64,000 nt of DNA. It comes from the human T2T-CHM13v2.0 reference genome, Homo sapiens. Location of the stretch: the NCBI RefSeq assembly GCF_009914755.1, contig NC_060934.1; one strand, given 5' to 3'. This document shows positions 21,301 through 24,300 of this stretch, piece after piece. Within the stretch, counting starts at the first letter, position 1; each line of letters opens with the position of its first letter. The notes below the pieces were generated by a model. The model ran no database searches, was not told the origin of the DNA, and was given only the letters and a program-made list of their open reading frames with translations. A program made the translations under genes and the position numbers.

Positions 21301-24300
21301 GTTTTCATATGCCATCAACTCCACTATGACCTTACGGGCTTTTTCATTGGCAATTGACTTTTGAGCAACATCTTGGAGCCTTGCCACAAAATCAGGGTAG
21401 GGCTCTTTCGAACCTTGTCTTACTGTATTAAATGAGGGGCAGGCGCTTCCTGGGTCTTGGATTTTTTCCCAGGCTCTAAGGCAGATAGCTCTAACTTGCT
21501 CAATGGCCTCATTTTGCATTAATGCTTGTTGACTAATAGTACTCCAATTTTGACTTATTCCTAATAGTTGATCTGCATCTATGTTAACTGGAGGATTGGC
21601 AGCCCTATTTCTTCGGACCTGTTCTTGTACCCCATCAATCCACCAAGTCTTAAATTGTAAAAATTGAGAGGGTGAGAGAGACGATTTTGCCAGAATCTCC
21701 CAATCATAAGGAATGAGTCTATGTCCATGAGCAATGGAATCTAATAATGTCCTCATATAAGGGGATTTGGGTCCATACTGTTTTACTCCCTCTTTCATAT
21801 CTTTTAGCATTTTTATCGAAAAAGACTTGTATCTGGCCTCAACTGTGAGAGGCTCTCCCTCTTGGGCTCCTTCTCCAGGTGGCATCGGTTCTAACGTTAC
21901 TGGGAATTGCCACGCCTCAGTATCTCCTTCCTTTCTTGATTTATCAATAATTTCATGTAATTCACTACCCTGTCTACTAGGTGGTGCCGTAGGATTAAGT
22001 CTCCTAGTGGGCGGCTGAGGGTATGGCGCCCTGCCCTGTGGTGCTGGGGGCATTCCTGGATATCCATACTGACTTTCTGGGGGTGGCCGATACTGAAGTT
22101 CGGCTGGCGGCCAGTATTGATAAGCTACTGGCGGTTGGGTCTTATTTTCTTTAACCTGCGTTTGAGGTTGTAGTGTTACGGGCACCTGACCTGCTGGAAG
22201 AGGACTTGGCCCTCGTGGCTTAGACTCTGATGGCCCCACTAATTCTGGACCTTTTCCTTCTAATTTTAACGTTTCAGGATATATCACCTCCTGTAATTGA
22301 TTATAGTCAACATTTTGCGTTGACTGAGCCATTACCGGCTCTGCTACATATTCGCAATGTAAACTTTCCATTTCTTTCTGGGATTTTTTCCTTGTCTTTT
22401 CATTACAATCTACTATACAGCTTCTAGGGGCGTCAGGAACTGAAACGCTATCTTCTTCTGTTTGAAATGGTTCTAAAGCTGCTTTAATAATGGCCCAATC
22501 ATTCCATACTATAAGTGGAATGATATTACCCTTCCTACCTGCTTGTTTTAGTTCCTTACCAATTCTTTTCCAGTCTTTTAGATCTAAAGTTCCTTGTTCT
22601 GGAAACCATGGGCAAAATTGTTCTATTATTTGAAATAGCTTGATTAGATTTTTTTGTAGATACTTTAACTCCCCCTCTTTTTAAAAGAATTTTAATAAAG
22701 CTGAGATAAGAGGCATATTTACTTTTAATTTTACTTTTAGTTTGCCCCATTATTACCCTAGCTTCTTCCGAGCTCACAAGCTTACCGTACGGCTGACTGT
22801 ATATGTACTCGGGATCTCTCGTCGACTTGTGCTCAATGACCACGCTCGAGCGTACCTTCACCCTAGAGAAAAGCCTCCACGTTGGGCACCAGATGAAGGG
22901 GTGGGTTGCCCCTCCACACCTGTGGGTGTTTCTCGTAAGGTGGAATGAGAGACTTAGGAAAGAAAAAGACACAGAGACAAAGTATAGAAATAAGGGGATC
23001 CTCCATATGCTGAACGCTGGTTCCCCGGGTCCCCTTATTTCTATACTTTGTCTCTGTGTCTTTTTCTTTCCTAAGTCTCTCGTTCCACCTTACGAGAAAC
23101 ACCCACAGGTGTGGAGGGGCAACCCACCCCTTCACACCTGCCTGGAATGGAGGGTGAAGTTCCCAAGGAAAGAACAGTGTCTAATGCTAGAGTTCTCTGA
23201 GTTATTGCTCAGTCAACCACATCACCATGGTTACCGTAAGAAAATTGGGCAGTTTTCCCATACTAATGGTAAACATTTTTTTCTGATTAGCCTGGATCTG
23301 AGTTTCTGGATTCTGTTATAAACCACTTCTCCTTTGAAGAATCCTGTCTTTAATGTACAAAGAACAGTTTGCAAAACATCCCCGTAAGCCCTTTTTCTGG
23401 TGAACACTGAGAGAACATTTCTGAGCAGTTTTGTAAGCTCCAGAGCCTAGGATGCTGCTGTGTTGGCCCTGGGATCTGGGACTTGGTGGAATGAAGAGAA
23501 GGGCAGGAGGGCAAGGTGAGCTGCACTGAGATTGGTTCTGTGTATGAGTTTCCTAATTAGCTGCCTTAACAACACATCACAAACTGAATGGCCACACATT
23601 TCTGGAGGCTAGAAGGGCAAAATCAAGGTGTCAGCAGGATTAGTTCTTTCTTAAGGTGTTAGGCAATAATCTGTTCAAGGCCTCTCGCCTAGTTTCCGGT
23701 GGTTTGGTGATCTTTGTTGTTGCTGTTTGTTGTGGTTGTTCTTCCTATATGTTTGTTTCATTTCCTGAACTAATTCTGTTAAGTCTGTATTCTTTGTCAT
23801 TGTCATGTGTGACCACTGAAGTCTGTTTGGTTGGCTTAGTGGTCAGCTAGTGATTAGACAGATACTCCCTTAATTGCTTTGAAACAATAAGTGTCTCAGC
23901 CTTTGCTGAGAGGTTCTGTGTGTGTGTTGTGGGTGGTGGGGAGCATGTCTTCAGCACTCCAGCAATTTACATCTCTGCCTTAGCCTTCACTTCCTGCTTA
24001 TACAGAGCCACATAGTCAGCCGGAAGTGAAAGATTAGAGCCCTCTTCCATCTTTCCTGGACATGTGCACAGCTCTGCATGTGTAGGTGGCATTCTAGATT
24101 GCTGGGAATATATCAGAGAGATCAGAGACCCTGTGAGCATCTTATTCCCCAGCTTTTCCTTTTAAGTTTTTGGTCAGCTTCTTATTTGCCCCAAGTGTTA
24201 TCACCACCTCAGGCAGCTGCTGTGATGTTAAATAATTGCTGCTGGTTTTTTGAGCTAGCTCAGTGTTAGGTCAAATAGGCCCTATAAATGGGGGTTTTCA

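What the first reader, a model, noticed from the sequence alone, without database searches (positions are those of the whole stretch)
22874..23140. HERV-K provirus with a U5 end at both termini: likely fossil of self-primed minus-strand strong-stop DNA
Seen: there is no U3 or R at the 5' end. Instead the PBS is preceded by a 241-bp palindrome with 105-bp U5 arms (104/105 identical) and a 31-bp spacer. Its outer end ...CCCCTTCA abuts the CACCTG TSD (23135-23140, matching 15740-15745). Read on the proviral sense strand, the order is antisense U5 (TGAAGGGG...GGGGACCCGGGGAACCAGCGTTCAGCATATGGAGGATCCC), a turn at a GGGA/TCCC microhomology that belongs to a natural LTR hairpin, sense U5, TC, PBS, then gag. 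Established: minus-strand strong-stop DNA starts with exactly this antisense U5; fold-back self-priming is a known in vitro side reaction of retroviral RT that nucleocapsid suppresses; integrase needs a CA att end on each side and HML-2 makes 5-6-bp TSDs. Inference: a prematurely terminated strong-stop DNA folded back, copied U5 and the tRNA PBS, served as plus-strand primer by PBS transfer, and gave a linear DNA with two U5 att ends that integrated normally. This would be an in vivo germline record of a non-canonical reverse-transcription route yielding a promoterless provirus.
Basis: partly seen in the sequence, partly recalled or inferred. Interest (0 to 1): 0.92.

Follow-up and report, generated by a model that had tools for sequence, protein, structure and literature searches.

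The report
Snap-back U5 palindrome on HERV-K provirus
A human-specific HERV-K provirus in an ABCC2 intron has an inverted copy of its own U5 end where its 5' LTR should be, and two other places in the same genome carry the identical fold-back junction, which looks like a recurrent reverse-transcription accident that was integrated into the germ line.

Summary
The minus-strand HML-2 provirus 10q24.2 (ERVK-17) spans window 15746-23134. It has no U3 or R at its 5' end. Instead, a 241-bp palindrome (22894-23134) precedes TC and the PBS, and the whole element lies between CACCTG duplications.

- The exact fold-back junction occurs at three places in this genome and no more: the window, a 253-bp solo palindrome at chr10:100.138 Mb, and a 261-bp one at chr15:25.93 Mb.
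- The two extra elements have their own 5- and 6-bp duplications and a young LTR5Hs-type sequence. One also carries 8 nt of PBS, so these are independent integrations.
- The last base copied in the antisense arm lies in the GGGATCC heptamer (LTR nt 823-829), where an alternative HML-2 start site ("nt 826") is reported.

I therefore favour this route: run-off minus-strand DNA made on an RNA that lacks R, then self-priming at a TCCC/GGGA microhomology, then integration through two U5 ends. This is inference; nothing was tested at the bench.

Published tables list the locus only as lacking its 5' LTR or keeping 23 bp of it, and my ten literature searches found no description of the palindrome. 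I rate it a new variant of a known kind, of high interest.

The parts
15740..15745 (.). Target-site duplication CACCTG, copy next to the 3' LTR
   Evidence: Read directly; identical to 23135-23140.
15746..16731 (-). Complete 3' LTR (986 bp, TGTGGGG...CCCCTTCA). It contains a 25-bp unit repeated twice in tandem at about 15961-16010.
   Evidence: length and ends. It is 92.9-94.6% identical to the 14 closest 5' LTRs printed, from a BLAST against the 40 surveyed upstream regions. Its U5 was aligned.
16732..22873 (-). Proviral interior. Open reading frames for gag (20806-22371), dUTPase-protease-G-patch (19947-20954) and RT-RNase H (18337-19953). Integrase is split over two frames (17115-18267). 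An Env/Rec chimeric ORF lies at 16769-17413.
   Evidence: ORFs and Pfam matches (Gag_p24 2e-41, RVP 1e-35, RVT_1 2e-43, Integrase_Zn 6e-19, HERV-K_REC 7e-57). A 1,372-bp env deletion and the 214-aa Env/Rec ORF are described by Schmitt et al. 2013, PMC3590776 (passages).
22874..22891 (-). Primer-binding site TGGTGCCCAACGTGGAGG
   Evidence: The same PBS occurs in 15 of the 30 loci (16 counting L027, whose PBS has no U5 before it). That it matches a lysine tRNA is recalled, not tested.
22892..22893 (-). TC dinucleotide between U5 and PBS (the two bases integrase normally removes from a U5 end)
   Evidence: present in the same place in the normal proviruses.
22894..22998 (-). Inner arm: sense U5, 105 nt, contiguous with TC and the PBS. 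Its first four bases (TCCC, 22998-22995) are the microhomology shared with the antisense copy.
22995..23134 (+). Outer copy: U5 in the opposite orientation to the provirus, 140 nt. It runs from the GGGATCC heptamer (LTR nt 823 in standard 968-nt numbering) to the CA end of U5. It includes the 31-nt centre that has no partner.
   Evidence: LTR 823-968, inverted; numbering.
23135..23140 (.). Target-site duplication CACCTG, copy next to the inverted U5 end

Best explanation
The palindrome is a fossil of a reverse-transcription by-product, not a later rearrangement.

Proposed route:
1. A tRNA-primed minus-strand DNA copied U5 from its CA end back to about LTR nt 823-826 and stopped there. The most likely reason is that the template RNA began there: a transcript from the reported alternative start site that carries no R and so cannot make the first strand transfer.
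2. Its 3' end (TCCC) paired with GGGA about 30 nt upstream, on the same strand or on a second copy.
3. Reverse transcriptase extended it back through U5, giving antisense U5, a turn, then sense U5.
4. In the window's element, synthesis went on into the PBS. That tail stood in for plus-strand strong-stop DNA in the second transfer onto a normal minus strand made from the co-packaged RNA.
5. The finished linear DNA had a U5 att end (TG...CA) on both sides, and integrase inserted it with a 6-bp duplication.
6. The result is a provirus without a promoter.

Shown: the anatomy, the duplications, and the recurrence of the junction. Inferred: every step of the route.
For: 1. **Anatomy.** The outer end of the inverted U5 is exactly the U5 att end and abuts the CACCTG duplication. 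The inner U5 runs straight into TC and the PBS.
2. **Recurrence.** The 24-nt junction has 3 exact matches in the 3.1-Gb genome. Three more sites with 3 mismatches are at the level of the control pattern, which gave 1+1.
3. **The two extra elements.** They are 253 bp (L002 1506-1758, duplication AGATG) and 261 bp (L004 1469-1729, duplication ATCTAT). Neither has U3 or R.
4. **Independent sources.** Their U5 is the young LTR5Hs type, 0 differences in 146 nt from the 5' LTRs of 4 of the 18 proviruses compared. The window's arms are another type, 6 substitutions and one indel away, so the events come from different sources.
5. **PBS fragment.** L004 carries TC plus 8 nt of PBS at its other end. 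This ties it to a reverse-transcription intermediate.
6. **Clean insertion.** L002's two flanks align end to end on a chrX paralogue of the host repeat, with the target present once.
7. **Fold.** The minimum-energy fold of the 140- and 146-nt run-off DNAs pairs the 3' TCCC with the GGGA that gives the observed junction.
8. **Start site.** The last copied base lies in GGGATCC, nt 823-829 in 12 of the 18 5' LTRs tabulated. An alternative start site at 'nt 826' is reported by 5' mapping, cited in Manghera and Douville 2013 PMC3598470 (passages). It is also reported by RNA-seq in Bhardwaj et al. 2015 PMC4379556 (passages).
9. **Nucleocapsid.** A review states that nucleocapsid suppresses self-priming mainly when an acceptor RNA is present (PMC6088434, passages). 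An R-less product has no acceptor.
10. **Shared deletion.** Both arms share a 6-bp deletion that the pattern search, at up to one mismatch, found nowhere else in the genome. Both also carry the TTTCCTAAG allele, while the 3' LTR has TTTTCCAAG. This is expected if one arm was copied from the other and the 3' LTR U5 came from a second minus-strand DNA.
11. **Human-specific.** The locus is absent from chimpanzee (Subramanian 2011 PMC3228705 table; Schmitt 2013).
Against: - The turn-round hairpin is weak and no better than shuffled sequence. Structure alone does not explain the fixed site.
- The start-site match is approximate. The anchors in Bhardwaj's legend disagree with each other by 6 nt, and I could not read the primary mapping paper. 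Under one numbering the RNA would start 2 nt short of the last copied base.
- Arms that are closer to each other (1 of 105) than to the 3' LTR U5 (4 substitutions plus an indel in 146) would also fit a late post-integration event or arm-to-arm gene conversion. The numbers are too small to tell these apart.
- For HIV-1, self-primed products were not detected in endogenous reactions (review).
- How a hairpin with a PBS tail becomes a blunt duplex for the two solo elements is unexplained.
- No empty site in apes and no other human haplotype was examined for L002 or L004.
Confidence: 0.75

Rival explanations
1. Post-integration rearrangement. A normal provirus (and normal LTRs at the other two sites) integrated first. 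Later a replication fold-back or hairpin-mediated repair at the short inverted repeat GGGA...TCCC replaced U3-R with an inverted copy of U5.
For: - The junction has 4 nt of microhomology, as replication template switches do.
- The arms are nearly identical (1 of 105) while they differ from the 3' LTR U5 by 4 substitutions and a 6-bp deletion. A recent event in an older provirus would produce this pattern.
- Shin et al. 2013 (PMC3625200, passages) describe another HERV-K locus with inverted partial LTRs and ascribe it to inversion plus template switching.
Against: - The second breakpoint would have to fall exactly at the LTR/duplication border, with the inverted U5 ending precisely in its att CA. 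This would have to happen three separate times.
- The two solo elements keep direct 5-6-bp duplications and nothing else of an LTR or provirus.
- L004 contains PBS sequence, which a solo LTR does not have.
- A simple fold-back at a fork would also invert the flank, and that is not seen.
Confidence: 0.08
2. Same by-product, different cause of the fixed 3' end. The RNA was a normal full-length genome. Reverse transcriptase paused or switched template at the foot of the RNA stem GGGAUCC/GGGUCCC, or two minus-strand DNAs annealed to each other through this quasi-palindrome. No R-less RNA is needed.
For: - The 7-bp RNA stem with one G-U pair can be read from the sequence.
- Intermolecular and intramolecular priming give the same product.
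- A start site mapped by primer extension or 5' RACE could itself be a reverse-transcriptase stop at the same structure.
Against: - Pauses are expected on entering a stem, not after leaving it (general knowledge).
- RNA-seq coverage also begins at 'nt 826' at one LTR (Bhardwaj 2015).
- A full-length strong-stop DNA with R would normally transfer, and nucleocapsid favours transfer over self-priming when an acceptor exists.
Confidence: 0.14
3. Assembly artefact: the palindrome was created by long-read assembly of a repeat.
For: Palindromes can arise as chimeric reads. I could not inspect raw reads.
Against: - The same junction occurs at three unrelated loci with clean duplications.
- The hg19-based coordinates of Subramanian 2011 (7,148 bp, ending at TC/PBS) fit the T2T spacing from the 3' LTR end to the base.
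- So do those of Shin 2013 (7,171 bp, ending 23 bp into the inner arm).
Confidence: 0.01

Closest known systems
Self-priming of retroviral minus-strand strong-stop DNA (HIV-1 cTAR hairpin; in vitro)
   Same: The 3' end of the minus-strand DNA folds on itself and is extended by reverse transcriptase into a hairpin. The product is a dead end for first strand transfer. Nucleocapsid suppresses it when an acceptor RNA is available (review PMC6088434, passages; Masuda-group paper PMC4668388, passages).
   Different: - The DNA here stops about 30 nt short of the conventional start of R (nt 793) and holds no R.
- The turn is a 4-nt microhomology with a weak stem, not a large TAR-like hairpin.
- The product was not a dead end. 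It was integrated in the germ line at least three times, once attached to a nearly full-length genome.
Ordinary HERV-K(HML-2) proviruses and solo LTRs
   Same: The LTR5-type sequence, PBS, gene order, TG...CA ends and 5-6-bp duplications are the same.
   Different: There is no U3 or R at the 5' end, so no promoter. The left end is a second U5 att site. The two short elements are not solo LTRs: they consist of U5 only, twice, in opposite orientations.
HML-2 copies made from spliced or truncated RNA (for example the rec retro-copy at 2q32.1, made by LINE-1)
   Same: Both are aberrant copies of HML-2 RNA that lack a 5' LTR. Schmitt et al. 2013 already proposed that 10q24.2 came from a partly spliced RNA copied 'in a retroviral fashion'.
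   Different: There is no poly(A) tail and no long duplication. The ends are integrase ends. Schmitt et al. do not mention the inverted U5 in the passages I read.
Short donors with two U5 ends used in concerted-integration assays in vitro (recalled, no call)
   Same: A short duplex with a U5 att site at each end is a substrate for integrase. The 253-bp element looks like a natural one.
   Different: Those donors are synthetic. That HML-2 integrase accepts U5/U5 ends is inferred here from the duplications only.

Membership tests
HERV-K(HML-2) provirus | LTR5-type LTR with TG...CA ends | tested here: met
   The 3' LTR at 15746-16731 is 986 bp and 92.9-94.6% identical to the 14 closest HML-2 5' LTRs printed by the BLAST.
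HERV-K(HML-2) provirus | Betaretrovirus-like gag, dUTPase-protease, pol and env/rec genes, and the group's PBS | tested here: met
   Pfam matches. The PBS is identical to that of 15 of the 30 surveyed proviruses.
HERV-K(HML-2) provirus | 5-6-bp target-site duplication | tested here: met
   CACCTG on both sides.
HERV-K(HML-2) provirus | Two direct LTRs (U3-R-U5 at both ends) | tested here: not met
   Upstream of the PBS there are only LTR positions 874-968 direct and 823-968 inverted.
Self-primed minus-strand strong-stop DNA product | Starts with antisense U5 from the base next to the tRNA primer | tested here: met
   The outer end is the exact U5 CA end in inverted orientation at all three loci. 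In L004 this holds for the right end only.
Self-primed minus-strand strong-stop DNA product | Turn where the 3' end pairs with an upstream stretch of the same strand | tested here: met
   TCCC/GGGA microhomology at the junction. The minimum-energy fold pairs exactly these bases, though weakly.
Self-primed minus-strand strong-stop DNA product | The copy continues into the PBS (copied from the tRNA) | tested here: inconclusive
   In the window the PBS follows the sense arm, but that is also what any provirus shows. L002 has no PBS. L004 has 8 nt of it at the other end.
Self-primed minus-strand strong-stop DNA product | Contains R up to the 5' end of the genomic RNA (a true strong stop) | tested here: not met
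   The copy ends at LTR nt 823-827. The conventional start site is given as nt 793. It is a strong stop only if the template RNA began near nt 826.
Self-primed minus-strand strong-stop DNA product | Made by reverse transcriptase and reduced by nucleocapsid | not testable with these tools
   Needs biochemistry.
Replication-based inverted duplication arising after integration | Breakpoints unrelated to viral att ends; flank or LTR remnants kept | tested here: not met
   All outer ends are att-type ends (TG...CA) flush with direct duplications. There are no U3 or R remnants.
LINE-1-mediated retro-copy | Poly(A) tail and a long (7-20 bp) duplication | tested here: not met
   No A-run at either end; duplications are 5-6 bp.

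The most novel reading that the evidence does not exclude
HML-2 left a small, unrecognised class of integrase-made insertions that record failed first strand transfer.

- RNAs from the alternative start site near nt 826 lack R. Their run-off minus-strand DNA self-primes at one fixed point.
- The snap-back product is either integrated alone (U5-only palindromes of about 250 bp) or hijacks the second strand transfer to give promoterless proviruses.
- The proviruses at 8q24.3a and 19q11 keep only the last 23 bp of U5, have good duplications, and share their left end with the chr15 element. They may be a related outcome: either collapse of such a palindrome between its 8-bp direct repeats, or termination at the stable terminal U5 hairpin.
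- If so, the genome holds a readable record of how often and where a betaretroviral reverse transcriptase goes wrong in vivo.
Probability: 0.45. Interest if true: 0.88.

Novelty: new variant of a known kind. Interest (0 to 1): 0.82.

Why it matters
- **A side reaction seen in vivo.** Self-priming of strong-stop DNA is known from test-tube reactions and is treated as a dead end that nucleocapsid prevents. Three germ-line insertions with the same junction would be natural evidence that it happens in vivo, that its product can complete replication, and that integrase accepts DNA with two U5 ends.
- **An old dispute about start sites.** It was reported that HML-2 LTRs start transcription 'between R and U5'. 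Such RNAs cannot replicate normally, and these elements may be what becomes of them when packaged.
- **Practical consequences.** The locus is listed in catalogues as lacking its 5' LTR or having 23 bp of it. Age estimates and promoter assignments for it should take the true structure into account. Adjacent inverted LTR5 fragments elsewhere may be more than annotation noise.

Tried and rejected
**Scan for other fold-back points.** I tried a genome-wide scan for U5 palindromes with any turn-round point, using two 20-mers and a variable gap. I did not reshape it. Other junctions are therefore excluded only weakly.
- In one search only 40 of 1119 candidates were scored, and only three loci matched on both strands.
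- Among 40 of 74 PBS-leader candidates examined, only the window has an inverted U5.

**Folds.** My first fold used a 3' end one base too short and did not show the pairing. It was repeated with the correct end.

**Paralogous empty site for L004.** None was found. The flank is mostly an Alu and the unique 54 nt has no second copy.

**Divergence as a test.** I considered using arms versus 3' LTR divergence to separate reverse-transcription from post-integration origin. I rejected it as underpowered (1 of 105 against 4 of 146 plus an indel).

**Literature.** No listing or passage I read describes an inverted U5 at 10q24.2, the two solo palindromes, or integrated self-primed strong-stop DNA.
- Fuchs 2011, Kovalskaya 2006 and Buzdin 2006 were not held.
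- Macfarlane and Simmonds 2004 was not looked for.
- Supplements were not opened. These unread sources may bear on the claim that the structure is undescribed.

**Recalled only, not used as evidence.** An old RSV paper on defective DNA with inverted U5, and the idea that tRNA-derived SINEs began as strong-stop DNA.
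Full report
**What is there**

The window holds the HML-2 provirus known as 10q24.2, ERVK-17 or c10_B. It lies on the minus strand in an ABCC2 intron, antisense to the gene.
- Its 3' LTR is complete (15746-16731, 986 bp).
- The interior encodes gag, dUTPase-protease, RT-RNase H, a split integrase and an Env/Rec chimeric frame.
- At the 5' end there is no U3 or R.

Read on the proviral strand from 23134 downwards, the order is as follows:
1. 140 nt of antisense U5, beginning with the exact U5 terminus (TGAAGGGG...).
2. The junction GGAGGATCCC/CTTATTTC.
3. 105 nt of sense U5.
4. TC, then the PBS, then the leader.

The repeat finder reports 108-nt arms, 98% complementary, 25 nt apart. 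Counted strictly, the arms are 105 nt with one mismatch and a 31-nt centre. CACCTG flanks the whole element (15740-15745 and 23135-23140).

**It is not unique**

A search of the window's own genome with the 266-nt region returned two other places that match on both strands (40 of 1119 candidates scored).

The 24-nt junction has exactly three perfect matches in 3.1 Gb. Three more sites with 3 mismatches are no more than the reversed control pattern gives.

The first extra element (L002 1506-1758, chr10:100.138 Mb) is a bare 253-bp palindrome.
- It consists of 146 nt of antisense U5, the same junction, and the sense U5.
- Its arms are identical over 111 nt.
- It is flanked by AGATG on both sides.
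- Its flanks align end to end on a chrX paralogue of the repeat it sits in, with the target present once.

The second extra element (L004 1469-1729, chr15:25.93 Mb) is 261 bp and is flanked by ATCTAT.
- Over 228 nt it is identical to the first.
- Its left end differs. It starts with the last 23 nt of sense U5, then TC and 8 nt of PBS, and joins the antisense copy at its 26th or 27th base through a 1-2-nt overlap.

The U5 of both elements is the young LTR5Hs type. It has no differences in 146 nt from the 5' LTRs of 4 of the 18 proviruses compared. The window's arms are 6 substitutions and one indel away. So there are three independent integrations, from at least two source lineages, with one and the same turn-round point.

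**Why reverse transcription and not a later rearrangement**

- Every outer end is a TG...CA att-type end, flush against a direct 5-6-bp duplication.
- Nothing of U3 or R survives at any of the three sites.
- One element contains PBS sequence, which a solo LTR never has.

A replication fold-back inside an integrated LTR would need a second breakpoint exactly at the LTR border, three times over, and would be expected to invert the flank as well. I give that rival about 0.08.

An assembly artefact is very unlikely. The hg19-based coordinates of two earlier catalogues fit the T2T spacing to the base.

**How it most likely arose**

The antisense copy is what minus-strand synthesis from the tRNA primer makes first. 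Its last template base lies in the heptamer GGGATCC. The junction allows the 3' end to be any of the last five bases, ...GGA(TCCC).

The minimum-energy fold of the 140-nt (window) and 146-nt (L002) run-off DNAs pairs the terminal TCCC with the GGGA of AAGGGGACCC. Extension from there gives exactly the observed sequence. The stem is weak, however: -2.6 kcal/mol locally, and not better than shuffles. What needs explaining is therefore the fixed 3' end rather than the hairpin.

In the standard numbering of a 968-nt LTR5Hs, GGGATCC is nt 823-829. This holds in 12 of the 18 LTRs tabulated.
- An alternative HML-2 start site at 'nt 826' is shown in Manghera and Douville 2013, who cite Kovalskaya 2006 and Katoh 2011 (passages).
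- Bhardwaj et al. 2015 saw RNA-seq coverage of one LTR5Hs begin 'primarily at position 826' (passages).
- A 2026 long-read study repeats that such transcripts leave R out and places the poly(A) site at the CA just after AATAAA (passages).

The anchors in Bhardwaj's legend disagree with each other: TATA at 790-797, Inr at 807-812, E-box at 832-843. So '826' falls on the first G, the A or the second C of GGGATCC. The first two fit the junction, and the third is 2 nt short.

I read this as a likely but unproven link. An RNA that starts there has no R, so its run-off DNA has no acceptor. According to the nucleocapsid review, suppression of self-priming depends largely on an acceptor being present (passages).

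The alternative keeps the product and changes only the cause of the stop: a pause or template switch on a normal RNA, or annealing of two minus strands. I give it 0.14.

**The full-length case**

For the window's provirus, the snap-back strand must have run on into the tRNA to gain a PBS tail. It then took the place of plus-strand strong-stop DNA on a normal minus strand. That requires a second minus-strand DNA from the co-packaged RNA.

The data are compatible with this.
- Both arms share a 6-bp deletion that the pattern search, at up to one mismatch, found nowhere else in the genome.
- Both arms carry the TTTCCTAAG allele, also seen in L034 and in L006-L008 and L015.
- The 3' LTR U5 has the undeleted TTTTCCAAG form, shared with 7 of the 30 surveyed proviruses.
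- A 2026 preprint also finds different nearest relatives for this locus's LTR and pol, with limited support (passages).

The counts are small. Late rearrangement or arm-to-arm conversion would give the same pattern, so I treat this as consistent, not decisive.

Schmitt et al. 2013 had already argued, from a 1,372-bp env deletion with splice-site ends, that the locus was copied from a partly spliced RNA 'in a retroviral fashion' (passages). That fits an unusual particle content.

**What remains open for the short elements**

How a hairpin becomes a blunt duplex with two processable ends is not explained. There are two routes.
- Direct integration of a mini-DNA, which L004's PBS fragment favours.
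- For L002, homologous recombination between the sense arm and the 3' LTR U5 of a provirus like the window's.

**Comparison with what is in print**

- Subramanian 2011 lists the locus as human-specific, age not available, with coordinates that stop at the PBS (table).
- Shin 2013 lists a 23-bp 5' LTR (table).
- Schmitt 2013 says it lacks the 5' LTR.
- None of the passages I read mentions an inverted U5, and ten full-text searches found no description of it or of the two solo palindromes.
- The library lacks most subscription papers, and I opened no supplements.

**Verdict**

The finding is a new variant of a known kind. Confidence is 0.75 in the reverse-transcription snap-back origin, and about 0.45 in the R-less-RNA refinement.

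Noticed in passing
L030 (chr8:140.58 Mb, 8q24.3a) and L032 (chr19:30.16 Mb, 19q11), with 3' ends in L049 and L048: Two other HML-2 proviruses have no 5' LTR except the last 23 bp of U5 (TGTAGGGG CAACCCA CCCCTACA, an 8-bp inverted repeat whose left end mimics an att end). Both have good duplications (TTTCT and AGGTAT). The chr15 palindrome starts at the same base. A pattern search requiring a base other than G in front (so any site whose flank ends in G is missed) finds only these three sites genome-wide. They may be collapsed palindromes, or products ended at the stable terminal U5 hairpin. Shin 2013 lists '23' for several loci without comment.
   Followed up: partly
L027 (chr7:106.07 Mb, 7q22.1, ERVK-14): This provirus begins directly with TC plus the PBS and has no U5 at all before it. 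Its ends and duplication were not examined.
   Followed up: no
window 15961-16010: The 3' LTR carries a 25-bp unit (GTCACAAGACAATTGTGGGGAGAGG on the plus strand) twice in tandem. This partly explains its length of 986 bp instead of 968 bp.
   Followed up: no
window 16769-17413 (minus strand): A 214-aa open frame matches both the Rec and the Env N-terminal Pfam families. This is the Env/Rec chimera described by Schmitt et al. 2013, created by an intron-like 1,372-bp deletion in env.
   Followed up: partly
L046 (chr7:143.07 Mb) and L069 (chr3:75.60 Mb): Two older proviruses keep only 35 bp and 59 bp of U5 before the PBS. Whether their ends are integration ends or later deletions was not checked.
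   Followed up: no
Bhardwaj et al. 2015, Figure 5 legend (PMC4379556): The motif coordinates in the legend are mutually inconsistent by 6 nt (TATA 790-797 and Inr 807-812 against E-box 832-843). Published 'nt 826' therefore cannot be placed to the base without the primary data.
   Followed up: yes
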